Source: a virus. From it: a DNA stretch of 64,000 nucleotides. The translations under genes were made by a program, and so were the position numbers. Shown one piece after another: positions 32,273-47,646 of this stretch. The stretch spans positions 45,969-109,968 of IMG/VR virus record IMGVR_UViG_3300042878_000903; one strand, written 5' to 3'. The notes below the pieces were generated by a model. It worked only from the letters and a program-made list of their open reading frames with translations. It had not been told where the DNA came from and made no database searches. The first letter of the stretch is position 1. Each line of letters begins with the position of its first letter.

Positions 32273-33385
32273 TTACTTCTCTTCTAGGGCTTTGACTCTC
32301 GCTGTAAGCTCTTGTACTGCTTTAATTAATGGTGATATAAATTGATCGTACCTAAGTCCTTGCATAGAATCTTCTTGTGACATATCCATTTTTACCCAAC
32401 CAGCAAAATCCCCGACACCAGATTCATCTAAGGCTTGTTTTACTTCTTGGGCAATAAGTCCATAATGTGTTCTTGATCCAGGAATAGAAACTATGTCTCC
32501 TTCGACAACTTCTTTGCCGCCTTCAACGAACTTATATTTTACGGGATTTAAATTATTTATAAAGTCAAGACCAAGCGGGGATGTAGCAATATCAGTTTTT
32601 AATCTTTCATCTGAAGTATTAATGGTTCCAGTATTAGAGTATATTGTTTTCCAAAATCTATTTGATGAAACTCCATTTGGTACATCTGTTGGCTGACCTA
32701 TTGAATAAAGATTGTTTGCAAAAGGATACCAGTTAGAATTTACTCCGTATCCAGAAGATGTTGGTATGTTTAAACTTATTGTTGTTGGAATTGGGTCAAT
32801 TGTTGCGCTCTCTCCAGGAATACCTTGAGGTCCAGTTGCGCCAGTTGCGCCAGTTGCGCCTCTTGGTATTGTAAATGAAAAAATAGCATTTGCTGTTGTT
32901 CCAGTATTTGTTACCGAAGCATTTGTTCCAGCATTGCCAGTTGTGGTTGTTCCAACAGCTATTGTTGCTGGGCCTTGTGGACCTACTGGTCCTTGTATGC
33001 CTTGTGGACCTTGAGGGAGAACTAAATTTAATGTTTGTGAAGGGCTGGTTCCAGTTATTGTTGCACTAGCAGAACCTCCCTCAACAACCGTTCCAATATT
33101 TAAAACATTGGATGGGCCAGGGCCACCAATAATTCCATCAACACCTCTTGGTAATGTTAAATTTAATATAGCATTAGATGCAGTTCCTACATTAACAACT
33201 GATGCTGGTGTAGCCGCACTAACAGTAGTTACTGTACCCACCGCTAACGTGCCTGAAGGGCCCTGTGGGCCTGGATTAGCGGCTATAAAGGTTGCAATGT
33301 CGGCACCAAGGTTTCCAAGGTCTCTAGGGACGTCTGGGGTGTCTGTATAGTCTGGAAATCTCCAGCCATTTACTCCTGTACTCAT
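32273..33385 (-). CDS. collagen-repeat tail fibre with peptidase S74 chaperone
   Basis: GPQGPQGIQGP and GATGATGATGPQG Gly-X-Y runs; TSDERLKTDI...GLIAQEV...RYDQFISPLIKAVQEL. Confidence 0.85.
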   Translation of the reverse strand: MSTGVNGWRFPDYTDTPDVPRDLGNLGADIATFIAANPGPQGPSGTLAVGTVTTVSAATPASVVNVGTASNAILNLTLPRGVDGIIGGPGPSNVLNIGTVVEGGSASATITGTSPSQTLNLVLPQGPQGIQGPVGPQGPATIAVGTTTTGNAGTNASVTNTGTTANAIFSFTIPRGATGATGATGPQGIPGESATIDPIPTTISLNIPTSSGYGVNSNWYPFANNLYSIGQPTDVPNGVSSNRFWKTIYSNTGTINTSDERLKTDIATSPLGLDFINNLNPVKYKFVEGGKEVVEGDIVSIPGSRTHYGLIAQEVKQALDESGVGDFAGWVKMDMSQEDSMQGLRYDQFISPLIKAVQELTARVKALEEK

Positions 33386-33405: not shown

Positions 33406-34056
33406 CTATTTAATATATATGTGTGCTGGGCTCATGTATCTAATGCCAGACACAATAGGCTTTACTTCGTGAATATATGGCTCTTGTGATGGGAACATTA
33501 TTAGGCTTCCAGCTTTTGGTTTTATAGTAACATTGTGATTTGGGAAACTAATTTCTCCACCCTCATAATCATCATTAACATATGCCACTAAAGAAAATGC
33601 TAAATCCTTGTTGCCATCCTGTCCATCAAAATGTGGGCCCATTGATTGTCCTTCATTCCAGGCTTTTATTGGTATGCGATCAAGACTTAAATTATATTTA
33701 TTTCTATCTAATTTTCTAGCGTCTAAATATCTATCAGTACACATTTGAAAGGCCATCAAAAAACTATTGGCAATATAAAGAGTTTTTTTATCTACTATAT
33801 CTGATCCAGTAGTTGTTTTTAACGCAGATCTATTTATTGTTTTTGTTTTACCATATACCAGACTAGAATCATTGCTTGCCGTCCAATTTTCCCATTTGGA
33901 TATCCTGGAATACGACTCTGGCTCTTCGTCTATTTTGTCTATAAAATCTTTTAAATGTTCTGGAAAGCTTAATGCATTTTCCCAGTACCAGATATCTGTT
34001 CCCAAAATTTTAAGATCAAACATTATAAACTGCTTAAACTCTACATTATTTTGCAT
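33406..34056 (-). CDS. prolyl-4-hydroxylase-type 2OG-Fe(II) oxygenase
   Basis: HFD...YVNDDYEGGEI.F...HEV...R. Confidence 0.88.
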   Translation of the reverse strand: MQNNVEFKQFIMFDLKILGTDIWYWENALSFPEHLKDFIDKIDEEPESYSRISKWENWTASNDSSLVYGKTKTINRSALKTTTGSDIVDKKTLYIANSFLMAFQMCTDRYLDARKLDRNKYNLSLDRIPIKAWNEGQSMGPHFDGQDGNKDLAFSLVAYVNDDYEGGEISFPNHNVTIKPKAGSLIMFPSQEPYIHEVKPIVSGIRYMSPAHIYIK

Positions 34057-34057
34057 G

Positions 34058-34810
34058 TTAGCCCTCTACTTCTGATGCTGGATACACTTCTCCACGGGGG
34101 GTTATTCTTAATCCTTTATTTCTATAGTCTTCCCACTCAATAGCCTCATCTGCTTGCATTGCTCTAACCTCAGCAAGCTCTGCCGCCCAAGCATCTCTAA
34201 CTTCTTGCGGGTAATCACTTTCTTCTCTATCGTCCCAGAATGATCCTAGAGTATATCTAATAGATTTTTTAACTGTGGTAACTTCGTGCATGTTATGGAA
34301 TCCTCCAGCAAATGTTACTAGAGTTCCAGTTTTTGGAACAATTGTTAATCCATGCTTAAAGTTTAAAATACCATCTTCAAAGTCATCGTTTAAATAAAGA
34401 AAGGTTGCATATCTACTTCTAGTAAATGCTCCTGAAACTCCATCATTAGAAGTATTGTCTGAGTGCATATTTGCAAAAGCTCCTGGTGCCCATCTTTGAG
34501 AGTGCCAGCTTATCTGCGACATTTGTGCTGAATCTTTTCCAGCCATATCTGCAGTAGCATCTATAACTCTTTGTCTAAGATCTACAAAAAAATCTCCTGG
34601 TAAGCCACAGGCAATTGTGTCTGGGTCATTTAGCTCTGGAGTGCCTGATGAGTATGACTCATAAAATGAAATTGGCATCCACTTTAATTGTTCTTTTTCC
34701 ATCTTAATAGCTAGAACATCAATAATTGATTTACATTCATCTGGGGTTAAAAAATTGTCATATTGCACAATATCTGGCTTGTGTCTAGTTATAACCATAT
34801 CTCTTTCCAT
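34058..34810 (-). CDS. prolyl-4-hydroxylase-type 2OG-Fe(II) oxygenase
   Basis: YDNFLTPDEC, HSD, YLNDDFEDG, HEV...RY. Confidence 0.88.
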   Translation of the reverse strand: MERDMVITRHKPDIVQYDNFLTPDECKSIIDVLAIKMEKEQLKWMPISFYESYSSGTPELNDPDTIACGLPGDFFVDLRQRVIDATADMAGKDSAQMSQISWHSQRWAPGAFANMHSDNTSNDGVSGAFTRSRYATFLYLNDDFEDGILNFKHGLTIVPKTGTLVTFAGGFHNMHEVTTVKKSIRYTLGSFWDDREESDYPQEVRDAWAAELAEVRAMQADEAIEWEDYRNKGLRITPRGEVYPASEVEG

Positions 34811-34812
34811 AA

Positions 34813-35712
34813 TTACATCATTCCTTTTTCTGCTTTAGCATCAGATGGGACACCAAATTCTTTAGCATCAAATGGGACACCAAATTGTTTTTCATCATAT
34901 GGGACACCAAATTGTTTTTCAACATGTTCCTCATATGTAACTGGAACTCCGTCATTAAAATAAACCATGTTTCTTTTATCATCGTATTCAATTCTTTGTT
35001 GCTCCATTTTTGCCCACTTGTAAGCACCAAATTTTCTTTGGTTTGCAAGCCATTCTTCTGTGCCATTATGAGGAGTCATTATAAAGTTTCTAACAAAAAA
35101 TTTCTCATTGCTGTTAATTGTTTTTACCCCATGATAGTATGGCTCTGTTGATGGAAATACTAAAATATCTCCAGCCTTTGGCTTATGATTAATAAATTGC
35201 CCATCAATATAAAACTCTATATCTCCGCCATCGTAATCATCATTAATATACATTGTGCAGGTAATTGAAAATTTCTCCCCAGGCATATCTTTTTGTGATG
35301 TTATGTGATCTGTATGATATTGCATTGTAAGCTTACTTTTAAGATTATCAACTCCTGCATGATATTTAGAATAAGATGATCCGCTAAAACGCCAGCCTTC
35401 TGGCAATTTTATATTGTGTCTTTCTATGTAGTCCGCTATAACCTTACTATATGCCGATTCAACTTCTTCAACGAATGCCTTTTCTTTAATAAACATTTCT
35501 GTAGATTGAATTTCTGCAGAAACTTCTCTCATATCTTTTTTCTGAGTATACGTTCCAAAATGGGCCCAAGGATCCCAGGTCTTTAAAAAATACTTTCCTT
35601 CTGAAGTTTTTTCTGAAGAATTCATGACTTCATATAGTTGTGCTGGATCTTTTAAAACATTTCTATAAACATCAACTTTTGGGTACAGTTCTATATAGTC
35701 TAATTGGCTCAT
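34813..35712 (-). CDS. prolyl-4-hydroxylase-type 2OG-Fe(II) oxygenase with C-terminal 9-aa repeats
   Basis: HTD, YINDDYDGGDI.F, HGV...K; start at MSQLDY (ATGA overlap). Confidence 0.88.
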   Translation of the reverse strand: MSQLDYIELYPKVDVYRNVLKDPAQLYEVMNSSEKTSEGKYFLKTWDPWAHFGTYTQKKDMREVSAEIQSTEMFIKEKAFVEEVESAYSKVIADYIERHNIKLPEGWRFSGSSYSKYHAGVDNLKSKLTMQYHTDHITSQKDMPGEKFSITCTMYINDDYDGGDIEFYIDGQFINHKPKAGDILVFPSTEPYYHGVKTINSNEKFFVRNFIMTPHNGTEEWLANQRKFGAYKWAKMEQQRIEYDDKRNMVYFNDGVPVTYEEHVEKQFGVPYDEKQFGVPFDAKEFGVPSDAKAEKGMM

Positions 35713-36386
35713 GGTTGTTTTTCTCCCGTATGTTTTTGTATCGTCCAAAAGAATGGAGATGTAAATCTATTTCCAGAGATTACTGGACGTACTCCATGTG
35801 TATAATTCATATCACCTGGAAAAAAATATGCTGCTCCTGCAACTGGCTGAAATTCAATTCCGTGCTGTGGGAAATATAATTCTCCGCCTTCATAGTCATC
35901 GTTAAAATAAAATAAGCCAGCCAAATCATACCAAGGAAAATCATTTGCTCTTCCTTTTTCTGGGCCAGAATGAAATTCTTTATCTGCATGCGGCTCTTGT
36001 CTGGCACCAACAGGCCATCTAACAATTGCTGGACCAGTTTCTTTTGCATCAACATTAAAAAATGCATCTACTTCTATTTTAAGTCTTGCTATCATGCTAT
36101 AAATTAATTCTAATATCGATGGGTCTGACGCCATTAAAGAATTGTAGGTGCAAACTCTATTTTCCCAAACTGTGTGGTCATATAAAACTAGGCCATCGGC
36201 ATCTCTATGGGTTTCTGTTATGTCCCAAATTTTATTATTAAGGGAAAAGTCCATCAATCTTTTACGCTCTTCTATTGTAAGGAAATCTTTTATTTCTACT
36301 ATGTTATTTATGGAATTACCAAAAAATCCAGACGGAGTAATAGATTTTGGCTTTTGATCTTCTGTCCATTGGTTTGCTAGCTTCAT
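35709..36386 (-). CDS. prolyl-4-hydroxylase-type 2OG-Fe(II) oxygenase
   Basis: HAD, YFNDDYEGGELYF, HGV...R. Confidence 0.88.
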   Translation of the reverse strand: MKLANQWTEDQKPKSITPSGFFGNSINNIVEIKDFLTIEERKRLMDFSLNNKIWDITETHRDADGLVLYDHTVWENRVCTYNSLMASDPSILELIYSMIARLKIEVDAFFNVDAKETGPAIVRWPVGARQEPHADKEFHSGPEKGRANDFPWYDLAGLFYFNDDYEGGELYFPQHGIEFQPVAGAAYFFPGDMNYTHGVRPVISGNRFTSPFFWTIQKHTGEKQP

Positions 36387-37111
36387 TTATCTATTATATC
36401 ATTTCCCTTGTTTAATTCATGATTGACTTTAAGCCTAATAGCTTTTACTTGATGACCGCCTAGGACATTTTTAAGGTGATCTACAGCATCTCTATAAAAA
36501 TTAGACCAAATTGCTTTTCTGTTTAAATCGTAAATAACATTAGAATACTCGTTAGAGTCAAATTTAGGGTCTGGCAAAGACTCTACTTTATCAAAATTTA
36601 TTTCTGAGTTTTGTAAAGCCTCTAAATCTATTGGTAGTATAGCAATTATTGGTGTTCCTGCTTTTATGGTAATAACTTCGTTTGGTTTAGTTATCATCCA
36701 GGCACATGGCAATTCTCCTCTAAAAAATGATGTACTCATTAAGGTTGTAAAAGGAACGGCACCGTCAATGAATAAATTTGGAACTGGCATAGATAGAAGA
36801 CTTAAATTTTCTTCAGTAGAAAACATTAGGCCCGTATTAAAACTTACTGTTCCATTAGCTCTACCAGAATAAGCATACTTTTCACCAGACAAAATTTTAA
36901 CGTGATCTGGAGTGCTGTCTGTTACGCCATCCCATATAAAAGATATATCTTCTGGAAAAGATATTCCCCAGCCAAGCTGGTTAGTGAGTCCTACTGGAAA
37001 ACATTTATATGCATGAGATTCCCAAGTATTATCCATCCAATCTCTTTTAATTGAAAGAGGAAAAACTTCTCCGTAACCATTTCTTATTGTATAGGCTTTA
37101 ATTTTATGCAT
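36383..37111 (-). CDS. DUF6065-like protein
   Basis: RDWMD...HAYKCFPV..TNQLGW.I..P...WDG motif. Confidence 0.65.
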   Translation of the reverse strand: MHKIKAYTIRNGYGEVFPLSIKRDWMDNTWESHAYKCFPVGLTNQLGWGISFPEDISFIWDGVTDSTPDHVKILSGEKYAYSGRANGTVSFNTGLMFSTEENLSLLSMPVPNLFIDGAVPFTTLMSTSFFRGELPCAWMITKPNEVITIKAGTPIIAILPIDLEALQNSEINFDKVESLPDPKFDSNEYSNVIYDLNRKAIWSNFYRDAVDHLKNVLGGHQVKAIRLKVNHELNKGNDIIDK

Positions 37112-37817
37112 ACGAGTTTTTGCCAGTTTTTTCATCTTCTACTAACCATCTGGCTCGTGCTTCAAAAAATTCTTGTCTGTGAGCATGATCATTATAATCA
37201 AGCATTGTTACAATAGAAAACTTCATGCCATCTTCTACTGGCATTGCTCTATGCGAAAATAGATAGGTAGATGGGAAAATATATAAATCGCCAGCTCTTG
37301 GCTTAATGTTTAGACCTAATTTAGGAAAAAATAAATTGCCTCCTGCATAATCGTCATTTACATAAGCAACTAATGATACTGTGGCACTATATGAAAATCC
37401 GTGGTCGGCATGCTCTTGGAAGTGTTGTCCTTTGCCGTATCTAATACAGTTCATAACTTCCCAATAATTCATCTTTACACTATATTTAGTACAATAATCT
37501 TGAACTGCTACATCCTGTGCTTTTTTTAAATCAGACCATAAATCTGCAACTAGTTTCTGGGTTTCATTGACTGGATTAATTATCTCTCCAATTTTAATAT
37601 CTTCACAGTCTCTATATGATGGTCTTTTTTCACTATACCCAACAAAACCAAATGTCCAACTGTATCTGGAATCTGCCTCTTTATCAGCAGAATTTCCTAT
37701 TGCGTTTAATCTATTAATAACGTCTAAATCTTTTTTAATTACATCTCTGTATACCCACACGCCTGGGAAAAGCTCTTCCTTTGAAGAAAATCCATATTGG
37801 TCATTTATAGTAGTCAT
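37104..37817 (-). CDS. prolyl-4-hydroxylase-type 2OG-Fe(II) oxygenase
   Basis: HADH, YVNDDYAGG.L.F, SHRA.PV..G.K. Confidence 0.88.
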   Translation of the reverse strand: MTTINDQYGFSSKEELFPGVWVYRDVIKKDLDVINRLNAIGNSADKEADSRYSWTFGFVGYSEKRPSYRDCEDIKIGEIINPVNETQKLVADLWSDLKKAQDVAVQDYCTKYSVKMNYWEVMNCIRYGKGQHFQEHADHGFSYSATVSLVAYVNDDYAGGNLFFPKLGLNIKPRAGDLYIFPSTYLFSHRAMPVEDGMKFSIVTMLDYNDHAHRQEFFEARARWLVEDEKTGKNSYA

Positions 37818-37899: not shown

Positions 37900-39105
37900 T
37901 TAAGCTATTACTAGGAAGGAATTAACGATAAACCATGGATTTGGAGATGTTCTAACATCGTACACGGTAGATTCTGTTTCACTCTTTTCAACTGAGGTTA
38001 CTGGAGTTCCTTGGACTAGTCCATTTGAATCTACTCCTATGATTATTTCTCCTATCTCAATTTCTCCTGCATTCTTATAGGTAATACCATTTGAGGTTTT
38101 TACAAATAACGGCTGGGTTTCTGAGTAGTCTTTACCTCTGTAATTAAATCCAATTAGCTTTCCAGTTTTTTCTGTTATTGAAATAACTTCTGAATTTGTA
38201 AGCTTAACTGTTGATTCTAAATGTCCAGATGTTTTATTTGCGGTTATAGATTCAAGATTAATATTAGAGTTATCAACTGTTATTACTTGATCTCCAATTT
38301 TAATATCTTTAGCTTTTACCCATCCAGTATTGGTGAAAATAACTGATTCTGGTGATAAACACTTACCCTTAAATCCTGGTGGGGAAAAGAACCCTGGTGG
38401 GGCAAAGAACCCTGGTGGGGCAAAGAACCCTGGTGGGGCAAAGAACCCTGGTGGGGCAAAGAACCCTGGTGGAAAGAACGGTGGAAAGAACGGTGGAAAG
38501 AACGGTGCTTGAGTTGTAATTTCCGCTGTATTTGCTGAAGCTGCTGACCGACCATTAGCATTATCTGCATAAACATTATAATACTGAGATGTATTAGCAG
38601 TATCATTGATGGTTATACTTAGGGATGCTGTATTTCCATTTGTTCCATCATTACCTGCAACATAGTAGTTAGTTATTGCGGATCCACCATTTGCTGGCTC
38701 TGTCCAAGTAATTGTGTTTTGGTTAACTCCTGCAGTTGCGATTGGGCTTTGTGGAGCTTGAGGTACGGTTGTTGCAGTAATGCTATTTGAGGCAGCAGAT
38801 GCTGCACCAGTTCCTACTGCATTTGTTCCCGTTACCGTAAATGTATATGCTGTATTTGATTGTAAACCAGTTACAGATATTGGAGAAGATGCTCCTGAAG
38901 CAGTATACGATCCTGGAGAGGATGTTACTGTAAAGGATGTAGCAGCAGGTGAATTTGCTGGCAAAGAGAACGTTACGTCGGCCCGTCCATTGTTATATGC
39001 ACGACCAGATGGTACGTTTGTTGCTGTTACTGACTCTGGTGCCCGTGGCTCCAAAAAGTCATTTGATGCCTGTGCCTTTTTACCGAATTTCTTACCTACT
39101 GCCAT
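37900..39105 (-). CDS. FN3-domain protein with Pro/Phe repeats and C-terminal Hint domain
   Basis: Two FN3-like domains; (PFFP)3-(PGFFAP)n; C249 LSPESVIFTNTGWVKAKDIKIGDQV...VYDV...WFIVN. Confidence 0.8.
   Translation of the reverse strand: MAVGKKFGKKAQASNDFLEPRAPESVTATNVPSGRAYNNGRADVTFSLPANSPAATSFTVTSSPGSYTASGASSPISVTGLQSNTAYTFTVTGTNAVGTGAASAASNSITATTVPQAPQSPIATAGVNQNTITWTEPANGGSAITNYYVAGNDGTNGNTASLSITINDTANTSQYYNVYADNANGRSAASANTAEITTQAPFFPPFFPPFFPPGFFAPPGFFAPPGFFAPPGFFAPPGFFSPPGFKGKCLSPESVIFTNTGWVKAKDIKIGDQVITVDNSNINLESITANKTSGHLESTVKLTNSEVISITEKTGKLIGFNYRGKDYSETQPLFVKTSNGITYKNAGEIEIGEIIIGVDSNGLVQGTPVTSVEKSETESTVYDVRTSPNPWFIVNSFLVIA
38374..38507 (-). repeat. 12-nt and 18-nt coding tandem repeats (PFFP, PGFFAP)
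   Basis: cggtggaaagaa x3 and ccctggtggggcaaagaa-type x5 on the + strand. Confidence 0.95.
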
Positions 39106-39138
39106 TTTGAATCTCCTTTTTAACTATTTAAATTTGTA

Positions 39139-40974
39139 TTACGCCATCAAGTCGCCGTAGACAACCCATGTATTTGCTGCTCTCTTAAAGAGAGTACAAG
39201 ATGACCAGGTTGTACGAAGCTTTAGGCCAGGTGTTGCGTTAACTGTAACTGTTCCTGATACTGGGGCAATTGTTACTTGTCCAGCTCCAGTTTGAAGAAT
39301 ATCAATAGATGTTCCGATTGGGAAGTCTAGAGTTGCGTCTTCTGGTATTGTTAAGGTTAGAGGTGATCCTGATCCCATTTCGATTAGATCATCTCTTTCA
39401 GTTAGTGATGAAAGTGTATATGATGCTGTTTTTGCAACGATTGGTGTTAAAGAATCTACCTTTAATCCAAGGCTGGTTGTTACTGATGCTGCAAAGTTTG
39501 CGTCATCTCCAAGTGCTTGAGCAAGTTCATCAAGTGTATTCATTGCTGCTGGTGCACCAGATATAAGTGCGCTTACCTGTGATGTTGCGTCTGCAATTGC
39601 TTCAGATTTTGCTGTTGCGATTGCTGAAGACTGTGCTGTTGATACTGGCTTATTAGCATCAGAAGTATTGTCAACATTTCCAAGTCCAAGTGTTGCTGGT
39701 GTTACTGCTGCAACCTCTGACTTAAGTGCTAGAAGTGCTGTATCTGCAATTCCATGAACATTTGTAGTGTCTGCTTCATGGGCTGAAAGAGCGGTAGCTG
39801 CTGCTGTAATTTGTGTTTGAACTGATGATGTAACTCCATCTAGGTATCCAATTTCTGTTGAAGAAACTGTACCAATTGATGTTGTACTTGGAAGAGTTAC
39901 TGTACCAGTAAATGTTGGTGAGGCCAAATCTGATTTAGCTGCAAGAGATGCACCTAGTCCAGAAATTTTGTCTTGGTGAATTGCTGCAGTAGCACTTACA
40001 TGATCATTTGTAATTTGAAGATCTGCAATTTTTTCTGCAGTTATTGCATCAACTGCAATTTTATCTGCAGTTACTGCACCATTTAGAATTTTTACTGTAG
40101 ATATTGCATCGGTTGCTAAATCTGCTGTTTCTACAGAGCCTGCAGGAAGTGTTACTGATCCTGTTACTGTTAAGTTAGTTAAGCCGATATCTGTTGCTGT
40201 AAGGTTTCTAAGCTCAAGATCATCTAGGCCTCCTTGGCTAAAATTAATTGTAGTGGTTGGTGCATCGGTTACTCCTGTAAAGAGTTTCCATTTATTAGCA
40301 GATGCATCTCTTGCAAATCCTGTGTGATTAGCAACTCCATCATTGTGTTTAGCTACAAATCCTAGATCTAAAGCATTTCCTGCGTTGGTTGATGCTAATG
40401 CAATTAGTGGATCTTCTGTTGTAAAGTTAGCTGTATCTAATGTTACAGTTGTTCCATTAACAAAAAGATTTCCAGCTAATGTTAAATTTTCTCCTGATAT
40501 GCTTCCACTTGTTGAAATATCTGTTGCTAGTCCTGTTAGCTTTAATTGTGCCTCTGGAACCTTAATGTTTCCATCAAGTGAAGCAACACCATTTGCTGAT
40601 CCACGATCTGAATTCTCTAAGTATGTGCTTGCTGTTGAATTTGTAAGTCCAGTTACTGCTGCATCAACATAGGCTACTGTTGCTACTACTGCTGAATCTA
40701 CAGAAATTGTAATTGTATTTGCGCCATCATTATAAGTCTTTGTTAAACCTGCACCCATTGTAAGTGCTGTATTGATTGCGTCTTGTGAAATTTCTCCAAT
40801 TTCAGGTGCATCTGCTGCTACGTAAGAAAGGGAATTCCATGCGGTGGATCCATCTCCAACTTTAATTTTTCTAGTGTTTGTTTCAACGCCTAGCTCTCCT
40901 GCTGCAAGTATTGGATTTACTCCAGACCAGTCTGTTGCTGATCCTCTTCGAACTTGAATTCTTACTGTTGACAT
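39139..40974 (-). CDS. tail fibre with Mtd-N-like N-terminus
   Basis: RIQVRRG...W...NPILAAGELGVET...KVGDG; GLGNVDNTSD; C-terminal W.VYGDL. Confidence 0.8.
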   Translation of the reverse strand: MSTVRIQVRRGSATDWSGVNPILAAGELGVETNTRKIKVGDGSTAWNSLSYVAADAPEIGEISQDAINTALTMGAGLTKTYNDGANTITISVDSAVVATVAYVDAAVTGLTNSTASTYLENSDRGSANGVASLDGNIKVPEAQLKLTGLATDISTSGSISGENLTLAGNLFVNGTTVTLDTANFTTEDPLIALASTNAGNALDLGFVAKHNDGVANHTGFARDASANKWKLFTGVTDAPTTTINFSQGGLDDLELRNLTATDIGLTNLTVTGSVTLPAGSVETADLATDAISTVKILNGAVTADKIAVDAITAEKIADLQITNDHVSATAAIHQDKISGLGASLAAKSDLASPTFTGTVTLPSTTSIGTVSSTEIGYLDGVTSSVQTQITAAATALSAHEADTTNVHGIADTALLALKSEVAAVTPATLGLGNVDNTSDANKPVSTAQSSAIATAKSEAIADATSQVSALISGAPAAMNTLDELAQALGDDANFAASVTTSLGLKVDSLTPIVAKTASYTLSSLTERDDLIEMGSGSPLTLTIPEDATLDFPIGTSIDILQTGAGQVTIAPVSGTVTVNATPGLKLRTTWSSCTLFKRAANTWVVYGDLMA

Positions 40975-41022
40975 TTTTTCTCCCTTTGTTACTTTATATT
41001 AGATTATTATACCATTATTTAT

Positions 41023-41556
41023 TTATACTAAAGTGCCTGAATCAAAAGTTAATTCGTACACTAAAGTGTCTGGGTATCCACCATTTGCATATTTATTTGC
41101 CGATGTTGAAACCCCGTTGCCTTGAACTGTATATACTGGTTGACCATTGTAATCAATTGCAAGACCTATATCCATGAAGCTTATATCTGGGGTTGCTTCC
41201 CAGTCTACGTTTCCAGAATCAAAAACCATTCCATAAGTTGGAGTTGATGGGCTTCCGCCATCAGCAAATTTAGTTGCTGTTGTAGATACCCCATTAGCTT
41301 GAATTGTATAGATTGGCTCACCATTGTAATCAATTGCAAGACCTACGTCCATTAAATTGATCATTGTGTTTTCGTCTGGAACTTCTGAATTTAAAGCTAT
41401 TGGCATCCATTGGCCATTTAGCTGAATTTGTAATTTGTTTGTTACGGTATCAAATCTTAAGGGAGTAGACCCTAATACAACATTAGACTCAAACGTAGCA
41501 GTGCCTGCGACATTTAGTCCATTCTTAACTCTAAAATTCTTATTTACTGTTGCCAT
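41023..41556 (-). CDS. virion structural protein with internal duplication
   Basis: MD(V/I)GLAIDYNG.P.YT.Q.NGVST.A.K.A.GG.P...FDSG occurs twice. Confidence 0.65.
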   Translation of the reverse strand: MATVNKNFRVKNGLNVAGTATFESNVVLGSTPLRFDTVTNKLQIQLNGQWMPIALNSEVPDENTMINLMDVGLAIDYNGEPIYTIQANGVSTTATKFADGGSPSTPTYGMVFDSGNVDWEATPDISFMDIGLAIDYNGQPVYTVQGNGVSTSANKYANGGYPDTLVYELTFDSGTLV

Positions 41557-41625
41557 TTAAGTTCACATATCCCCTAAGTGTTTTTTGTGGGGAGATTTCA
41601 GGCTCTCCCCAGGCCGTTTATTTAA

Positions 41626-42780
41626 TTATTTAAGAAGTGTTCCAGATACTTTAACTGTTGAGTTATCTACTGGAGTTACTCTTATTCGTACATTTGAACC
41701 TGATACGTCTGCTGTGATAGTTCCTCTTGATCCATTAGTTCCGACAATTGCATATTCTGTAACTGCTACATTGTCTGACGAGTCTAGTGTTATTAGAACC
41801 TCTGATACTTCATTGTGTGTTGCGTTGTCAATTTTAACAAGAACTTTGGCTGAGCGGTAGTCTGCCTTTGCCCACTCATAAGCTGTTCCAGCAACTGATG
41901 CTGTTCCAGATGATGAAGCTGCAAATTGCTTAGCTTGATCATTTACGTTTAATGCTGTAAATGCTGTTGTTCCGTTTTGCTGTGCTGTATTAGCGGCTGC
42001 TGCTGTTGCTTCTGCTGCTGCTTGCGCTGCGTTGGCCTTAGTTGTTGCGTCTGCTGCTGCAGTTGATACTGAAGCTGCGTCGCCTGATACTCTAAGTGCT
42101 GCTTCTGCTGCTATGTCTGTAGCAACTTGGGCTGAGGTAGCTTTTGTTGCAAGAGCTGTTGTAATAGTTGTTGTGTAATTAGCATCATCATTAATTGCTG
42201 CTGCTAATTCATTTAATGTATTAAGAAGGTCTGGTGCGCCATCTACTAATGTGCTTACTGCGCCAGAAATTGCTGTGTTACGATTTGAAACCTCTGTTGA
42301 TATTGCAGATGAAAGAGCGGCTGCTGCTGTTGCTTCTGCTGCTGCTTGCGCTGCGTTAGCCTTTGTAGTTGCGTCTGCTGCTGCTGTAGCTACTGAAGCT
42401 GCGTCTCCTGATACTCTAAGTGCTGCTTCTGCTGCTACCTTAGTAGTTGCATCTGTTGCTGCAGCTGTAATTGCTGCAGATTGCGCTGCGTTAGCCTTTG
42501 TAGTTGCATCTGATGATGCTGCAGAAATTGCTGCAGACTGAGCAGATGAAGCTGATCCATAAGCGTCAAATACGTTAGCCTTTACTGTAAGATTGCCTGC
42601 ACCATCGACTGCAAATGTTCCTGCGTCTACGGATTTTACAAGAGTAGCACCGCCAACAAGGTTGAGGATGTAAGCATTTCCGCCTGTTTCTGTAAGTATA
42701 TTTTGACCATTGATTGTACCTGTAGCACCCTCAACTATAAGGCCTGATTTAATTCTAAAGTTTTTTACTACTGTTGCCAT
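41626..42780 (-). CDS. Ala-rich coiled-coil fibre protein
   Basis: DATTKANAAQ repeats, GAPDLLNTLNELAAAI; C-terminal YRSAK...E.L...D domain. Confidence 0.75.
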   Translation of the reverse strand: MATVVKNFRIKSGLIVEGATGTINGQNILTETGGNAYILNLVGGATLVKSVDAGTFAVDGAGNLTVKANVFDAYGSASSAQSAAISAASSDATTKANAAQSAAITAAATDATTKVAAEAALRVSGDAASVATAAADATTKANAAQAAAEATAAAALSSAISTEVSNRNTAISGAVSTLVDGAPDLLNTLNELAAAINDDANYTTTITTALATKATSAQVATDIAAEAALRVSGDAASVSTAAADATTKANAAQAAAEATAAAANTAQQNGTTAFTALNVNDQAKQFAASSSGTASVAGTAYEWAKADYRSAKVLVKIDNATHNEVSEVLITLDSSDNVAVTEYAIVGTNGSRGTITADVSGSNVRIRVTPVDNSTVKVSGTLLK

Positions 42781-42810
42781 TTTATATGACTCCTCTTATT
42801 GCTTTTTTTG

Positions 42811-43368
42811 TTATGCTTTAAGCGTTGTTCTGATATATCTTACTGAGATAGAACCAGAAACAGGGGTGACTCTTAAACTAATTATACCTGAGTTTTCTTC
42901 AAAGGTATAAGAAAATAAACTAGTGTTTGTGTTTGAGATAATGTTTGATTCTGAAACCATTATGTCTGTTCCGTTATGAGAAACAAGAATTTCTGATGTA
43001 TAAACATCGGAATTTTTTGTCACCTGAATGTTATATTTAGCTGTTCTCCATACGCTCTTTGAAAAAGAGTCTACGTTTGTAGCGTTTTCAATACCATAGA
43101 CTGCAAGGTCATTGTTGCCTTCTAATCCAAGAAGCTCTATAACGTTGTCTGTGCTATTGTCTAAATTGATTAACGTAGTTTCAATAGTAGATACTTTGTA
43201 CGTCAGTGATGCAGGATCTGTTGAACCGTTTACACCAACTTTTGTTTCTAATGCTTCAATGGCATCATTTGCATTTATATGTTGCTGCGAATGAGATGGT
43301 GATGATAGCTCGTCGGAAGAATTAGGATTAACTAATTGATCTAAGCTAGATGGATAATTGGTGGCCAA
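42811..43368 (-). CDS. virion structural protein
   Basis: TNYPSSLD...H...NDAIEALETKVG N-terminus; C-terminal domain similar to 41626-42780. Confidence 0.65.
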   Translation of the reverse strand: MATNYPSSLDQLVNPNSSDELSSPSHSQQHINANDAIEALETKVGVNGSTDPASLTYKVSTIETTLINLDNSTDNVIELLGLEGNNDLAVYGIENATNVDSFSKSVWRTAKYNIQVTKNSDVYTSEILVSHNGTDIMVSESNIISNTNTSLFSYTFEENSGIISLRVTPVSGSISVRYIRTTLKA

Positions 43369-43441
43369 TTGACTACCCCCTATGTGTAATTATGTTGCTT
43401 AGATAATTATACCTTATTATTTTTTACAAAGAAGGTTTATT

Positions 43442-43681
43442 TTACCATTTTGACAATGGGCAGGTTGCTGCTTCCATTGCTGTCTTCATTTTCATTAGAC
43501 AGCCACATTGTTTACATTGTGTAGTTAATGATATGAACTCAGGACATCCCCTGCAAATATTTAGTCTTTGTTCTTTTTTTTCATCAGTAGTCCATACGGT
43601 ATTTGGATTTAGCATATCCCATGGCTTGACGGTATTTGGATCAACTAGGTTTGCTTTTATTGTTTTCCACCTTGAAGTCAT
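43442..43681 (-). CDS. Cys-rich small protein (DUF6171-like)
   Basis: RLNICRGC...QCKQCGCLM..KT......CPLSKW. Confidence 0.65.
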   Translation of the reverse strand: MTSRWKTIKANLVDPNTVKPWDMLNPNTVWTTDEKKEQRLNICRGCPEFISLTTQCKQCGCLMKMKTAMEAATCPLSKW

Positions 43682-43683
43682 AA

Positions 43684-43914
43684 TTAATCCTTGTTAAATG
43701 ATGTGCCGTTCCATTTCCATCCAGATGCTGGGGTTGGAAGTTGTGATATTTCTATAGGCAAATCTGTAAAATTTATTATTTTAGGGTTACTTGATAGTCC
43801 TGATCTTAATATTTCTGTTTGAAAGTCTCCTGTTGGTATAGCAAACCATCCAGCAAACTCATTATCAACAAGAACAAAAAATACTTCTCCGTCAATATCT
43901 CTTTTTATAGACAC
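43684..43914 (-). CDS. small protein, possible tail-fibre assembly-type
   Basis: LSSNPKII...GWKWNGTSF C-terminus. Confidence 0.55.
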   Translation of the reverse strand: MSIKRDIDGEVFFVLVDNEFAGWFAIPTGDFQTEILRSGLSSNPKIINFTDLPIEISQLPTPASGWKWNGTSFNKD

Positions 43915-43949
43915 GGTAAATCTCCTTTTTTAAAATTATAGCATAAAAA

Positions 43950-46142
43950 TTATGCTATGGCTATAGTAGAATTAACAATAAACCAAGGTTCTGGGGAAGT
44001 TCTAATATCATAAACCTTTGAATCAAAATCATCTACTTCAATTGATTCTACTACAATATTTGAGACTGACCCGCTTGAATCTACATTTATAATTACATCC
44101 CCAATATTAATATCTCCAGCATTTCTATATTCTATTCCTTCTGAATTTTTAATAAATATAGGCTGATTAATAGAATAGTTTTTACCAATTTTATTAAATC
44201 CAATTAATGTTGAAGTTTTTTCTGTTATAGAAACAACCTTTACATTTGAAAATTCAATAACGGATGGTAATTCCTGTGATGTCTTATTTTGAGATACAGA
44301 ATTAAGGTTTATGTTTGAACGGCTAATCGATATAAGGTCATCTCCAACAAAAATATCTTTTGCTTTTACTAAACCATTTTTAGTAAAGACAAGTCCGTCT
44401 GGTGATATACAGGCTTTACCTCCCTTAAATGATGGTGGGAAGAACGGTGGAACGTTTGGTTCAAAAATTGGTGGGAAGAACGGTGGTATGCCACCATCGA
44501 CTCCAAAACTTGGTGGGAAGAACGGTGGGAAGAACGGTGGGAAGAACGGTGGTGCAAAAACTGGTGCTGGGTCAGTTGATTGACATGCTGGATAACTTGT
44601 CCCAAACGAACACTGACGAGAGTAGCCGCTACCAGATGCGGACGTGTCGGAACCAGGTTTTGTGTAGCTGCAATTACCTACGCCAGCTCCAGGACTAGAG
44701 GTTGTACAATGCCATTCGCTTTGTATGCCTATTGGTGCGGGATCTGTTGATTGGCATGCTGGATATGTTCCAGTGTTGTTGTATATACACTGACGAGAGT
44801 AGCCGCTACCAGATCCTGAATTATCAAAACCAGGGGCTGTGTAACTACAGTTACCTACGCCAGCACCTGGAGAAGAGGTTGTGCAATACCATTGAGAAGC
44901 TGGTGCTGGGTTAGTTGATTGACATGCTGGATAAGTTGTTCCAAATGTGCACTGACGAGAGTAGCCGCTACCAGATGCGGAGTTATCAAAACCAGGGTCA
45001 GTATAACTACAGTTGCCTACGCCACCGCCGTTGGTAGAGGTTGTGCATTTCCATGTGTTTGGTGCTGGAGGATATGTTATGGTTACGGCTGGAGAAGAAA
45101 GCCAGGCGGTCTCTGTAAATCTTGGAGATGTTCCTATAATTAATACTACAAAAGATCCAAATGTATCTGGAGAAGCACCAGGTCGATCTATGTCTAAGAA
45201 ATTAGTGCTAGGACTTGAAGATGCAGAGCTTGCATATACTGAACCATCATTGTACACTGTCCAACTAGTTACAGTTATGTTTGTAGCAGACCAAACCAAT
45301 TTTCCTCCGTAACTGTAAGAAAGCATTCCTGCTGCAACTGAAGGTTTGTTTGGCTTTAAATCGGTAACCGATGCATTTTTGCCGTATCCGCTTAATGACG
45401 TTCCAGAAACATTGGATGTATTCAATGGATTAATTAATATTCCTAAAGTTCCTGAAGCGGATCCTGTGTCAATTGTAAATTTACATGTAGTACCTGATGT
45501 AGAATATACACCTTTTGCAGAATCTGTATTATTTACCATACTAGTAACTTCTGTAAATGCTACTTCTGGTCCTTGGTATTGTATATAATAATCATTAGCG
45601 CCTTTTACTTTTTCCCATGTAAACTCTACTACGCCATTTGACACAACATTAACAGTTATATCTCCTAAATTAGCGGGAGCAATTACTGGACTTGATAAGG
45701 TATATATATCTCCTGAATTTTTACCATCTGCATTAGTAGCCGAAACTTTACACCTAACCGCATAGCCAACATATTTTAATGTTTGTTGAGAATCCCATTC
45801 GTCTTCAGATAATGCCAAAGAGCTTGTTGTTTTATCAAGTATGTTAGACCAATTAGATGTAGGATATGGAGCTTTTTGCCATTGATATTCAAATGTTGTT
45901 GGTGAATTTTCCCAAGTACCATTTGTTGTTAAAACTGTTTGTTCTGCAGCATAAAGAAATGATGAACCTTGCAAAGAAAGAGTTGGCAAAACTGTATTGA
46001 CTGGAACTATTCCTAGTAGATTTTTCCACTCAGACCCATTCCAAACATAAGCCGCCTTAGAATCGTTCCAAGATGTTCCATCATGGATTTGAATCTTTTT
46101 TAAAGGATTCCAACTGGAACCATCAAAAATGTTTAGCGGCAT
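43950..46142 (-). CDS. adhesin-like protein: Ig/FN3-like N-terminus, three Cys-rich repeats, PPFF repeats, C-terminal Hint domain
   Basis: PVNTVLP...GTW...FEYQW Ig-like; 3 x four-Cys repeat; (PPFF)n; C578 ISPDGLVFTKNGLVKAKDIFVGD...VYDI...WFIVN. Confidence 0.8.
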   Translation of the reverse strand: MPLNIFDGSSWNPLKKIQIHDGTSWNDSKAAYVWNGSEWKNLLGIVPVNTVLPTLSLQGSSFLYAAEQTVLTTNGTWENSPTTFEYQWQKAPYPTSNWSNILDKTTSSLALSEDEWDSQQTLKYVGYAVRCKVSATNADGKNSGDIYTLSSPVIAPANLGDITVNVVSNGVVEFTWEKVKGANDYYIQYQGPEVAFTEVTSMVNNTDSAKGVYSTSGTTCKFTIDTGSASGTLGILINPLNTSNVSGTSLSGYGKNASVTDLKPNKPSVAAGMLSYSYGGKLVWSATNITVTSWTVYNDGSVYASSASSSPSTNFLDIDRPGASPDTFGSFVVLIIGTSPRFTETAWLSSPAVTITYPPAPNTWKCTTSTNGGGVGNCSYTDPGFDNSASGSGYSRQCTFGTTYPACQSTNPAPASQWYCTTSSPGAGVGNCSYTAPGFDNSGSGSGYSRQCIYNNTGTYPACQSTDPAPIGIQSEWHCTTSSPGAGVGNCSYTKPGSDTSASGSGYSRQCSFGTSYPACQSTDPAPVFAPPFFPPFFPPFFPPSFGVDGGIPPFFPPIFEPNVPPFFPPSFKGGKACISPDGLVFTKNGLVKAKDIFVGDDLISISRSNINLNSVSQNKTSQELPSVIEFSNVKVVSITEKTSTLIGFNKIGKNYSINQPIFIKNSEGIEYRNAGDINIGDVIINVDSSGSVSNIVVESIEVDDFDSKVYDIRTSPEPWFIVNSTIAIA

Positions 46143-46152
46143 TTCAGGCTCC

Positions 46153-47646
46153 TTAGTATTGTATGTAAATATCTCCAGCAGAATTACCGCTTGCAGGTGG
46201 TGTTAAGCTTGTGCTATATGTAATTTTATTTATGTTAGCAGAAGAGCTTCCGTTAGTATATGTTCCGTTAATATTATTAGATGCAGCAGTGGTGGCAGCT
46301 GTAATAGATGATGTGATGGCTGATGGAATTGCAGACTCTAGTATTTTACCGTTTGAATCTAGCCCAGCATATCCATTATTTTCATTTCTTTCAGATTCTG
46401 GCTGGTACCCGCCTAATGAGTTATCAATACTATTTTTGGCTGTATCAGTATATGCTTTTGCTTCGGTTAAAGCGGCTGTAAGATTGGCAGAAGTTGCATA
46501 TCCAGGAATTACTGGAGTTCCAGTAAATGTCGGCGAAGCAATTGGAGCATAAGTTGTTGCTGCCAAGTCAGAAGACAATTTTGTTCCAACCAAAGTTGTT
46601 AATGTTGATGCACCAGTTTGATCTGATGCAATATAATCTGCAATTTCTTTAAGTGTATCAAATGAAGCTGGTGCCGCATTTACAACATTTGCTATTGCTG
46701 CAGAAATATCTGATGTTCTTGCTATGGAAGATGGAATCAGTGATAGTGGTATTAAAGCAGAAGCATCTAGTCCAGCTACGCCATTTAACATATTCCTATC
46801 TGACACTGGAATATATGCGCTAGAAATTTCTGTTCTTAAATCATCTACAGCTGAAAGAGCAGCATTTAAAGAAGCAGTACGTGCAGCATTTGTTGCTGTA
46901 ACAGCTCTTGCATTTGTAAAGTATAAATTAGTTCCTTCTGGTAATTGAGTTGTTGATGTAATTGGAGAAGGTACTGTAAAATTAGCTAATGAAGAGTCAA
47001 CATAACTTCTGGTAGTAGTAATTAATGGGTCTACTATTGCTGATACTCTATTTGTTGTAAAATATAGGTTTGTTCCTTCTTCTATGTCTGAAGTAGTAAT
47101 AAGATTAATTGCCGTGTTTATTTTTGTATCTGCAATTTGTCCCGCTAAAGTTACTGCGTTTGTAGATTTTGTTGTTGCATCTGCCGCTGCGGTAGTAATT
47201 GCTTCTTGGAATTTTGATGTTGTGTGTAAATTAGCTGAACTTAAAGCTTGTGCTGCAGATCCGTAAACATCAAAATATCCGTCTCCTGCAGTCCTTGCTC
47301 TTGCATTAGTAAAAAATAAATTTGTTCCTTCTAAAAGACTTGATGTTGTAAATGGACCAGAATTATTTATAGCATTTTGAATTGCCGTAGCGGCTTCTGT
47401 GTCTAAAGAAATTTGATCTGGTAATTGTGATAAAGGTATTTTGCCGTCAGAATTTAATGTAGCAATTCCATTTGCTTGTCCTGGTTTAAATGCATAGTTT
47501 GTAAGAAGATTCCATCTTTGGGTTCCGTTACCTATTTTAAATTTAAGAGTATCAGTTTCTATTCCTATTTCACCGTTTAAAAGAAGTGGATTGTTCGCTG
47601 TCCAATTTGCTGCGGTGTCTCTTCTTAATTGAATTTTAAATGCCAT
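46153..47646 (-). CDS. tail fibre with Mtd-N-like N-terminus
   Basis: KIQLRRDTAANW...NPLLLNGEIGIETDT; EGTNLYFT repeats; GVAGLD repeats. Confidence 0.8.
   Translation of the reverse strand: MAFKIQLRRDTAANWTANNPLLLNGEIGIETDTLKFKIGNGTQRWNLLTNYAFKPGQANGIATLNSDGKIPLSQLPDQISLDTEAATAIQNAINNSGPFTTSSLLEGTNLFFTNARARTAGDGYFDVYGSAAQALSSANLHTTSKFQEAITTAAADATTKSTNAVTLAGQIADTKINTAINLITTSDIEEGTNLYFTTNRVSAIVDPLITTTRSYVDSSLANFTVPSPITSTTQLPEGTNLYFTNARAVTATNAARTASLNAALSAVDDLRTEISSAYIPVSDRNMLNGVAGLDASALIPLSLIPSSIARTSDISAAIANVVNAAPASFDTLKEIADYIASDQTGASTLTTLVGTKLSSDLAATTYAPIASPTFTGTPVIPGYATSANLTAALTEAKAYTDTAKNSIDNSLGGYQPESERNENNGYAGLDSNGKILESAIPSAITSSITAATTAASNNINGTYTNGSSSANINKITYSTSLTPPASGNSAGDIYIQY

What the first reader, a model, noticed from the sequence alone, without database searches (positions are those of the whole stretch)
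37900..44411. Two paralogous non-canonical Hint domains capping PPFF-repeat proteins
Seen: both proteins end FKG(G)K(A)-C-[~150 aa Hint] (37900-38361 and 43950-44411). Cys1 and the block-F VYD are kept, but block-B TxxH reads SETQ/SINQ and the terminal His-Asn is replaced by LVIA/IAIA followed by a stop, so there is no C-extein. Established: Hedgehog/BIL-type Hints form an N-terminal thioester that is hydrolysed or transferred to a nucleophile. Inference: these cannot splice, but may activate the PPFF C-terminus for ligation to a small molecule, lipid or other protein, or for cyclisation. The shared His-to-Gln change suggests a distinct subfamily that is slow or needs a trigger.
Basis: partly seen in the sequence, partly recalled or inferred. 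Interest (0 to 1): 0.75.

Follow-up and report, generated by a model that had tools for sequence, protein, structure and literature searches.

The report
Self-cleaving Hint caps on phage fibre proteins
Two tail-fibre-associated proteins of an uncultured 110-kb phage each end in a genuine but unusual Hedgehog/intein-type (Hint) domain that cannot splice and most likely cuts itself off the proline-phenylalanine-rich tail it caps; it belongs to an undescribed, phage-only Hint subfamily.

Summary
Both minus-strand genes (37900-39105, 401 aa; 43950-46142, 730 aa) end in a 153-aa domain that starts at Cys and stops at ...LVIA/...IAIA. The two domains are 56% identical; the N-terminal parts are unrelated.

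The fold is Hint: AlphaFold2 pLDDT 95.8, with TM 0.65-0.82 to inteins, BIL domains and Hedgehog. A family profile hits the C. thermocellum BIL domain at E 4.5e-10.

In 112 unique relatives, all from metagenomic or viral contigs:
- Cys1 is present in 86 of 86 sequences that reach it.
- Block B reads S/T-x-x-Q (Q 91, H 17, E 4).
- The end is I-A/I-S-stop in most, but His-Asn plus 1-17 non-nucleophilic residues (usually one Lys) in 25.

Splicing is therefore excluded. N-terminal thioester chemistry is plausible but untested.

New context: the Hint is one of several alternative C-terminal caps. Orthologous FN3 + PFF-repeat proteins end instead in short Cys-rich tails or in nothing. All sit after an Mtd_N tail-fibre gene, next to 5-7 prolyl-hydroxylase-like oxygenases and a DUF6065 gene.

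Best reading: a self-removing cap. Ligation remains possible. First readers noted the same type on another genome, not followed up. New variant of a known kind.

The parts
37900..39105 (-). Gene for the 401-aa FN3/PFF/Hint protein (P0001)
   Evidence: ORF and translation. Pfam fn3 E 1.7e-8. The full-length AF2 model shows two beta-sandwich domains (res ~20-198, pLDDT >90), a PFF tract with pLDDT <50 (212-242), and a Hint with pLDDT ~90.
37900..38361 (-). Hint domain 1 (Cys249 to Ala401, plus stop)
   Evidence: pLDDT 95.8; Foldseek probability 1.0 to inteins, BIL and Hedgehog.
38362..38508 (-). PFF tract and FKGK linker of P0001 (res 200-248): (PPFF)3 then (APPGFF)5
   Evidence: Translation. 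DNA tandem arrays of 18 bp x5.4 (98% matches) and 12 bp x3.3 (100%). Tract length is 49-95 aa in orthologues.
43950..46142 (-). Gene for the 730-aa Cys-repeat/PFF/Hint protein (P0002)
   Evidence: Its orthologues are 725-1142 aa in L005, L014 and L015.
43950..44411 (-). Hint domain 2 (Cys578 to Ala730, plus stop)
44412..44552 (-). PFF tract and FKGGKA linker of P0002 (res 531-577)
   Evidence: (12 bp x3.4, 100% matches).
44561..45054 (-). Three ~54-59-aa four-cysteine repeats directly before the PFF tract of P0002
   Evidence: TRF period 162/177, 2.8-2.9 copies; translation. No Pfam family.
39139..40974 (-). Tail-fibre gene (611 aa, Mtd_N N-terminus) 33 bp upstream of P0001
   Evidence: Pfam Mtd_N E 1e-14; many PHROG tail-fibre families. 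The pairing is conserved in related loci.
46153..47646 (-). Tail-fibre gene (497 aa, Mtd_N N-terminus) 10 bp upstream of P0002
33406..37817 (-). Block of five PF13640 2OG-Fe(II) (prolyl-hydroxylase-type) oxygenase genes plus DUF6065 (36383-37135), directly downstream of P0001
   Evidence: Conserved next to PFF proteins whatever their cap type.
32273..33385 (-). 370-aa fibre with a C-terminal Peptidase_S74 self-cleaving intramolecular chaperone (context: a second kind of self-removing C-terminal cap in the same module)
   Evidence: Pfam PF13884 E 8.5e-14.

Best explanation
Each domain is an autoprocessing Hint domain of the Hedgehog/BIL type that performs only the first intein step. Cys1 attacks the preceding peptide bond (Lys248-Cys249 in P0001, Ala577-Cys578 in P0002) in an N-to-S acyl shift. 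The resulting thioester is then resolved, most likely by water. The 153-aa Hint is thereby released, and the mature tail-fibre-associated protein ends just after its PFF tract (...PPGFKGK-COOH). On this reading the Hint is a self-removing C-terminal cap. It would protect, solubilise or nucleate assembly of the very hydrophobic proline/phenylalanine tail during synthesis and virion assembly, much as the Peptidase_S74 chaperone does on the neighbouring fibre. Shown: the fold, the family, the residue conservation, the lack of a C-extein, the genomic context and the alternative caps. Inferred: that the thioester forms, that water resolves it, and the biological purpose.
For: 1. The Hint fold is modelled at high confidence (pLDDT 95.8, pTM 0.89). 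Top structural matches are inteins, BIL2, C. thermocellum BIL and Hedgehog 1at0/6tyy (TM 0.65-0.82). The family profile hits 2lwy at E 4.5e-10.
2. The nucleophile is conserved. Cys1 is present in 86 of 86 unique relatives that reach that position, at about 25-35% overall identity. One relative (L093) appears to have Ser there, judged from the printed sequence. Cys1 is the only Cys in P0001.
3. Block B keeps S/T (108/112), Q/H/E (112/112) and Pro (100/112).
4. A bulky -1 residue can replace the block-B His for the N-S shift (PMC6333167). The -1 residue is Lys in 41 of 86 and bulky in 65 of 86.
5. The domain lies at the C-terminal end in every full-length family relative, followed by at most 17 non-nucleophilic residues, and is preceded by PFF-type repeats in nearly all.
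6. Thirty-one of 65 unique complete orthologues of the FN3-PFF protein have no Hint. They end right after the PFF tract or in a ~20-aa Cys-rich tail. The mature protein therefore does not need a Hint, and a hydrolysed Hint-type product would resemble the uncapped type.
7. The protein stops at the last Hint strand, so there is no sterol/adduct-recognition region and no acceptor domain.
8. The same module uses an S74 self-cleaving cap on another fibre.
Against: [quoted passage not shown] From background knowledge, it is also essential in Hedgehog. Gln cannot act as an acid/base, so activity may be weak or absent. P0002 has a small Ala at -1, and 21 of 86 relatives have G/A/S/P there, so the steric-compensation argument does not cover all members. 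The block-F Asp is not conserved family-wide. No experiment, proteome or cultured phage is available: there is no match in 50,697 GenBank phage records. Nothing here separates hydrolysis from transfer. Divergence of the Hint relative to the N-terminal part gives no clear signal.
Confidence: 0.45

Rival explanations
1. Hint-driven ligation. The Cys1 thioester is not hydrolysed but attacked by an amine or hydroxyl. Candidates are a Lys of the upstream fibre or another virion protein, a Lys of the conserved F-K-x-K linker (giving a small C-terminal lactam), a lipid, or a host-envelope amine. The PFF tail would then become covalently attached or cyclised while the Hint leaves.
For: There is precedent: the Tetrahymena BIL2 domain, rank 8 among the structural matches, conjugates its N-extein to Lys side chains without ATP (PMC8616854, section 2.4). 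Type A BILs ligate flanks through a free amine (PMC4031507). Hedgehog transfers to cholesterol (background knowledge). A basic linker with [FY][KR] within 10 residues of Cys1 occurs in 65 of 86 relatives. In 25 of 112 relatives the domain ends His-Asn plus usually one conserved Lys, a minimal amine-bearing 'C-extein'. There is tight operon pairing with a fibre gene, with gaps of 33 and 10 bp.
Against: There is no adduct-recognition region or acceptor domain. No gene family is found specifically with Hint-capped loci apart from lineage-restricted neighbours. Orthologues without a Hint exist in equal numbers. The window's own proteins lack the His-Asn-Lys end.
Confidence: 0.25
2. Catalytically dead Hint retained as a folded knob at the distal end of the PFF stalk, serving as a structural or receptor-binding tip. 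It would be one of several interchangeable tips, alongside the Cys-rich tails.
For: The key block-B His is lost (Q in 91 of 112) and the terminal His-Asn is lost. C-terminal ends of fibre-like proteins are commonly exchangeable binding modules, and alternative caps exist. The Hint of the long paralogue is swapped between close relatives: N-terminal part 91% identical but Hint 74%.
Against: Invariance of Cys exactly at position 1 (86/86, apparently with one Ser variant) is hard to explain for a non-catalytic knob. So is conservation of S/T-x-x-[QHE]-P in sequences only about 25-35% identical, and the fact that P0001 has no other Cys to pair with.
Confidence: 0.2
3. Decaying remnant of an intein or BIL selfish element that landed at the end of the gene and has no role for the phage.
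For: Relatives with intact His-Asn exist. Phage genomes often carry inteins (PMC3556154).
Against: There is no homing endonuclease. The domain is never internal. It is always fused to the same kind of N-extein (PFF repeats) on unrelated scaffolds, is kept in two paralogues per genome, and is conserved across dozens of diverged viral contigs with intact frames.
Confidence: 0.05

Closest known systems
Hedgehog/Hog C-terminal autoprocessing domain (PDB 1at0, 6tyy)
   Same: The Hint fold (TM 0.69-0.75). The position at the C-terminal end of the protein, with no C-extein. Cys1 as the only possible nucleophile, so only the N-terminal reaction is possible.
   Different: There is no sterol/adduct-recognition region after the Hint. 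Block-B His is replaced by Gln. The setting is a phage virion module, and the N-extein is a Pro/Phe repeat rather than a signalling domain.
Bacterial intein-like (BIL) domains, types A and B (C. thermocellum BIL, PDB 2lwy; Tetrahymena BIL2, 6y75)
   Same: The best sequence-profile match (2lwy, E 4.5e-10). No +1 nucleophile. Cleavage rather than splicing is expected. The distant family members ending His-Asn-Lys look like type A BILs with a one-residue C-flank.
   Different: The window proteins have no His-Asn and no C-flank at all. They keep the block-G strand, unlike type B as described in PMC4031507. Gln replaces the block-B His. No Pfam Hint-clan model reaches its threshold.
Class 1 mini-inteins (e.g. 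Npu/Ssp DnaB, Pho CDC21-1, Pho RadA)
   Same: Fold, Cys1, the block B/F/G layout, and bulky Lys at -1 as in Pho RadA (PMC6333167). The Tko CDC21-1 group shows that a Hint can work without the block-B His (PMC4031507, PMC6333167).
   Different: Not inserted in a host protein: no C-extein, no terminal Asn and no +1 nucleophile, so it cannot splice.
Peptidase_S74 intramolecular chaperone of phage fibres and tailspikes (PF13884)
   Same: Functional analogy only: a C-terminal domain of a phage fibre protein that removes itself after assembly. One is present in this same module at 32273-33385.
   Different: Unrelated fold and chemistry (Ser-Lys dyad protease versus Cys thioester). There is no sequence similarity.

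Membership tests
Hint (Hedgehog/intein) superfamily | Hint beta-fold | tested here: met
   AF2 pLDDT 95.8. Foldseek PDB probability 1.0 with TM 0.65-0.82 to inteins, BIL and Hedgehog. BFVD top hits are named Hint-domain proteins of uncultured phages.
Hint (Hedgehog/intein) superfamily | Significant sequence similarity to known Hint domains | tested here: met
   The family profile hits PDB 2lwy at E 4.5e-10, and 2jmz, 4e2u and 4o1s at E 1e-8 to 6e-7. The single sequence is sub-threshold only: Intein_splicing 21.8 bits against a cutoff of 35.8, and Hint_2 18.1 against 28.4.
Hint (Hedgehog/intein) superfamily | Cys/Ser nucleophile at position 1 | tested here: met
   Cys in 86 of 86 unique relatives; apparently Ser in L093, judged from the printed sequence.
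Hint (Hedgehog/intein) superfamily | Block B T-x-x-H | tested here: not met
   S-E-T-Q and S-I-N-Q in the window. In the family: S 101 / T 7, and Q 91 / H 17 / E 4. Q aligns with the His of 2lwy, 2jmz and 4e2u.
Hint (Hedgehog/intein) superfamily | Autoprocessing (thioester formation) activity | not testable with these tools
   Needs expression of wild type versus Cys1Ala.
Intein (class 1) | Inserted in a host protein, with a C-extein starting with Cys/Ser/Thr | tested here: not met
   A stop codon follows the last Hint residue. Relatives with extra residues have K/L/F/A/Y/I at +1, never C/S/T.
Intein (class 1) | C-terminal His-Asn (block G) | tested here: not met
   Ile-Ala in both window proteins. 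In the family: IA 33, IS 32, VS 6, HN 25.
Type A BIL | C-terminal His-Asn followed by a non-nucleophilic flank | tested here: not met
   Not met by the window proteins. Met by 25 of 112 relatives (…LVHNK*).
Type B BIL | No similarity to intein block G; cleavage at both flanks | tested here: inconclusive
   The block-G strand is retained (…WFIVNSFLVIA aligns with …WFIAGGYLVHN), but its catalytic residues are lost and there is no C-flank. No type B reference sequence was available to compare.
Hedgehog/Hog proteins | Hint followed by a sterol/adduct-recognition region | tested here: not met
   The protein ends at the last Hint strand (E154-157 of the 158-residue model).
Peptidase_S74 intramolecular chaperone | PF13884 domain | tested here: not met
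   No hit in P0001 or P0002. The domain is present in the neighbouring fibre only.

The most novel reading that the evidence does not exclude
The Gln-type Hint is a latent thioester generator that covalently couples the C-terminus of the PFF tail to an amine. The amine could be a Lys of a virion partner, so that the fibre accessory is welded on without ATP as in the Tetrahymena BIL2/ubiquitin-like system. It could also be the conserved linker Lys, or a host-envelope amine on contact, which would make a covalent phage adhesin. The His-to-Gln change would keep the precursor stable until the acceptor is in place. The relatives ending His-Asn-Lys would be the ancestral form, which transfers the tail onto its own terminal Lys.
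Probability: 0.25. Interest if true: 0.85.

Novelty: new variant of a known kind. Interest (0 to 1): 0.6.

Why it matters
Terminal Hint domains that only do N-terminal chemistry are well understood in animals (Hedgehog) and in a handful of BIL domains. Their roles in bacteria and phages are essentially unknown. Here a coherent, phage-only subfamily has three notable properties:
- It is tied to one kind of substrate, a Pro/Phe repeat tail on fibre-associated proteins.
- It naturally lacks the 'most conserved' block-B His yet keeps Cys1 invariant.
- It exists side by side with orthologues that carry other caps or none.

That gives a natural experiment on what Hint chemistry is for in virion assembly, and on how the N-S acyl shift is catalysed without His. 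If active, these small (153 aa), C-extein-free domains would be ready-made self-cleaving tags or thioester generators. The wider module (PFF proteins, 5-7 prolyl-hydroxylase-like enzymes, DUF6065) points to a post-translationally tailored fibre material not yet described in phages.

Tried and rejected
1. Single-sequence searches gave nothing above threshold. This covers Pfam, PHROGs and NCBIfam and phmmer against PDB. The profile was needed.
2. GenBank phage records have no DNA or protein match for either Hint type, for two more distant Hint types, or for the FN3 part, apart from one weak FN3 hit. No cultured model phage was found. Only the portal finds cultured relatives, at 56-59% identity to Streptomyces phages.
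3. Cellular genomes have no close relative. 'Relatives' is not defined for a virus record. Absence from cellular genomes is therefore shown only for close relatives.
Context came from viral contigs instead.
5. I looked for a gene family that occurs only with Hint-capped loci, as a candidate acceptor or partner. None was found beyond lineage-restricted neighbours. Two small families occur only in non-Hint loci, and their meaning is unknown.
6. Comparing divergence of the Hint with that of the N-terminal part, to separate 'enzyme' from 'binding tip', gave no clear signal.
7. Model coordinates could not be read in the script box, so distances between Cys1, Gln, the invariant Asn321 and the scissile bond were not measured.
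8. The true-intein reading is rejected (no C-extein, no Asn, no +1 nucleophile). The chance-resemblance reading is also rejected (fold, profile, family).
Full report
**What is there**

The window is bases 45969-109968 of a 109,968-bp IMG/VR virus record rated complete. All genes in the region lie on the minus strand. Two ORFs carry the finding:
- P0001 is 37900-39105 (401 aa).
- P0002 is 43950-46142 (730 aa).

Each domain starts at Cys and ends ...FLVIA-stop or ...TIAIA-stop. The last 167 residues are 56% identical (E 1e-56). The N-terminal parts are unrelated.

P0001 has this layout:
- a ~20-aa basic N-terminal peptide;
- two FN3-like beta-sandwiches (Pfam fn3; AF2 pLDDT >90);
- a 49-aa (PPFF)3(APPGFF)5-FKGK tract, modelled with pLDDT <50;
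- the Hint domain.

P0002 has a different N-terminus, three ~55-aa four-Cys repeats, a 47-aa PFF tract ending FKGGKA, and the Hint. The PFF tracts are encoded by near-perfect 12- and 18-bp tandem arrays.

**Is it a Hint domain?**

Single-sequence searches are only suggestive. Intein_splicing scores E 1.7e-4 and Hint_2 E 3.7e-3, both below the Pfam cutoffs, and phmmer against PDB finds nothing.

An exhaustive phmmer search of 1.84 billion representatives found 77 hits. About 55 of these form one family in which the domain lies at the extreme C-terminus. A 29-sequence alignment (A1) gave three results:
- The profile hits the C. thermocellum bacterial intein-like domain 2lwy at E 4.5e-10, then several inteins.
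- AlphaFold2 gives pLDDT 95.8 and pTM 0.89.
- Foldseek matches inteins, Tetrahymena BIL2, 2lwy and Hedgehog 1at0/6tyy at probability 1.0 and TM 0.65-0.82.

BFVD and the ESM Atlas return Hint-annotated proteins of uncultured phages.

**Residue-level picture across the family**

I pooled the representatives with ORFs from 101 related viral contig loci. This gave 112 unique domains.

| Position | Result |
|---|---|
| Cys1 | C in 86 of 86 sequences that include it; one locus (L093) appears to have Ser there, from the sequence printed |
| Block B | S 101 / T 7, then x-x, then Q 91 / H 17 / E 4, then P 100 |
| Asn seven residues before block B (F-N) | Invariant, 112 of 112 |
| Block F | V-Y conserved; the Asp is only 72 of 112 |
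| C-terminal end | I-A 33, I-S 32, V-S 6; His-Asn plus 1-17 further residues in 25, usually a single Lys (…LVHNK-stop), never C/S/T at +1 |
| Residue -1 | Lys in 41 of 86; bulky in 65 of 86 |
| [FY][KR] within 10 residues upstream of Cys1 | 65 of 86 |

The Q column aligns with the block-B His of 2lwy, 2jmz and 4e2u. The window proteins thus belong to a distinct Gln-type Hint clade. Its deeper branches still look like type A BILs with a one-residue flank. The window's branch has lost His-Asn and ends at the last Hint strand.

**Context**

Each PFF-Hint gene follows a tail-fibre gene with an Mtd_N N-terminus, at gaps of 33 and 10 bp. Downstream of P0001 the order is:
- five PF13640 2OG-Fe(II) oxygenases and a DUF6065 gene;
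- a fibre with a Peptidase_S74 self-cleaving chaperone;
- a LamG protein;
- portal, prohead protease and major capsid protein.

The portal is 56-59% identical to portals of ~127-134-kb Streptomyces phages. This suggests an actinophage, but no GenBank phage carries the Hint or the PFF protein. The synteny of fibre, PFF protein and oxygenases is conserved in the related contigs.

**The key new fact**

Searching with a full-length relative found many orthologues of the N-terminal peptide + FN3 + PFF protein. Of 65 unique complete proteins, 34 end in the Hint and 31 do not. The 31 end in ~20-aa Cys-rich tails or a few residues after the PFF tract.

Both classes keep the same neighbours:

| Neighbour | Hint loci (of 46) | Non-Hint loci (of 41) |
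|---|---|---|
| Oxygenase-like | 45 | 39 |
| DUF6065 | 42 | 39 |
| Mtd_N fibres | 41 | 40 |

The Hint is therefore one of several alternative C-terminal caps of a PFF-tailed, fibre-associated protein. The oxygenase cluster goes with the PFF protein (or the fibres), not with the Hint.

**How it most likely works**

Splicing is excluded directly by the sequence. Several features argue for the first intein step, an N-S acyl shift giving a thioester:
- an invariant position-1 Cys in sequences about 25-35% identical;
- the fact that Cys1 is the only Cys in P0001;
- the conserved S/T-x-x-[Q/H/E]-P turn.

The missing His is a real objection. [quoted passage not shown] However, bulky -1 residues can compensate for its loss in the N-S shift (PMC6333167), and most family members have Lys or another bulky residue at -1.

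For the fate of the thioester I favour hydrolysis, that is, a self-removing cap:
- Hint-less orthologues show that the mature protein does not need the domain.
- There is no adduct-recognition or acceptor region.
- The same module already uses a self-removing S74 cap.

Ligation cannot be excluded. BIL2 shows that a Hint can conjugate its N-extein to Lys (PMC8616854). The basic linker and the His-Asn-Lys relatives hint at amine chemistry. A dead, retained knob is the third option.

My odds are:
- autoprocessing of any kind, about 0.7 (removal 0.45, ligation 0.25);
- dead knob, 0.2;
- selfish remnant, 0.05.

**Comparison and novelty**

The domain works like a Hedgehog/BIL autoprocessing domain. 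It fails defining features of each named family:
- inteins: no C-extein, no His-Asn, no +1 nucleophile;
- type A BILs: no His-Asn;
- Hog proteins: no recognition region.

It also misses the block-B His of the superfamily motif and every Pfam threshold. Full-text searches found inteins in phage enzymes but no description of terminal Hint caps on phage structural proteins or of PFF-repeat proteins. Some members are auto-named 'Hint domain containing protein' in UniProt. First-stage notes of this scan flagged the same domain type on another genome, not followed up. I rate it a new variant of a known kind.

**Limits**

No experiment, proteome or cultured relative was available. Model coordinates were not readable in scripts. 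Absence from cellular genomes was tested only for close relatives. The related contigs share ancestry, so the gene associations are not independent observations.

Noticed in passing
window 33406-37817 (-); loci L003-L103: Five PF13640 prolyl-hydroxylase-type 2OG-Fe(II) oxygenases plus a DUF6065 gene sit directly downstream of the PFF protein. Of 104 sequences scanned (103 loci plus the window), 94 carry at least one such oxygenase, mostly 5-7, whatever the C-terminal cap type. In relatives another oxygenase-like gene also appears to follow the long PFF-Hint gene. The PFF tract is an obvious candidate substrate for proline hydroxylation.
   Followed up: partly
e.g. L097:367-1344, L054:6992-7924, L082:4937-5878, L081:4739-5749: Orthologues of the FN3-PFF protein carry no Hint. 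They end in ~20-aa Cys-rich tails (6-9 Cys, e.g. C-x-C-G-Y-C-W-R-C...), sometimes after a (GV)n spacer, or stop a few residues after the PFF tract. No Pfam family matches the tails.
   Followed up: partly
family relatives P0034, P0035, P0039, P0041, P0049, P0051, P0056, P0060, P0068, P0069, P0073, P0085; L077:2791-4128: A deep branch of the same Hint family ends ...LVHNK-stop: canonical His-Asn plus a single conserved Lys as the whole 'C-extein'. This could be a BIL-A-type transfer of the N-extein onto a lone Lys, or just a relic.
   Followed up: no
L093:1754-3061: A family member that appears to have Ser instead of Cys at position 1 (S-I-A-S-S-T-G-I-L-T-P-D-G), judged by eye from the printed sequence; it also has a divergent C-terminal end.
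   Followed up: no
L019:6515-8389, L021:1875-3736: Two PFF-Hint genes in direct tandem (about 305 aa each).
   Followed up: no
window 38375-38507 and 44512-44552; P0009 vs P0011; orthologues in L009, L013, L016, L017: The PFF tracts are encoded by perfect or near-perfect 12/18-bp tandem arrays. Tract length varies between 49 and 95 aa among orthologues. Two otherwise near-identical proteins differ by a 28-aa in-tract insertion, so repeat number is evolutionarily labile.
   Followed up: partly
window 44561-45054 (-): Three tandem ~55-aa modules with four Cys each (W-x-C-T-T-S...G-V-G-N-C-S-Y-T...S-R-Q-C...Y-P-A-C-Q-S-T) lie before the PFF tract of P0002. There is no Pfam match. They are also present in relatives P0007 and P0008.
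   Followed up: no
window 32273-33385 (-): A 370-aa fibre with a Peptidase_S74 intramolecular-chaperone domain (res 258-323). The same structural module therefore uses two unrelated kinds of C-terminal self-processing domain.
   Followed up: partly
window 28464-30047 (-): The portal protein is 56-59% identical to portals of large Streptomyces siphophages (Muntaha, BillNye, StarPlatinum), although the window is only ~37% G+C. This suggests a phage of a low-GC actinobacterial host.
   Followed up: no
loci with non-Hint PFF proteins (L048-L103 subset): Two small gene families (~145 aa and ~151 aa) occur in 22 and 16 of 41 non-Hint loci and in 0 of 46 Hint loci. This may be a lineage effect or may be linked to the Cys-rich caps.
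   Followed up: no
L005:211-2388 vs window 43950-46142: The long paralogue is 91% identical in its N-terminal 527 aa but only 74% in the Hint. In L009, L012 and L014 the long paralogue carries a linker like that of the short one (FKGK-CLSPDSVIFT). Both point to exchange of the PFF-Hint module between paralogues or phages.
   Followed up: partly
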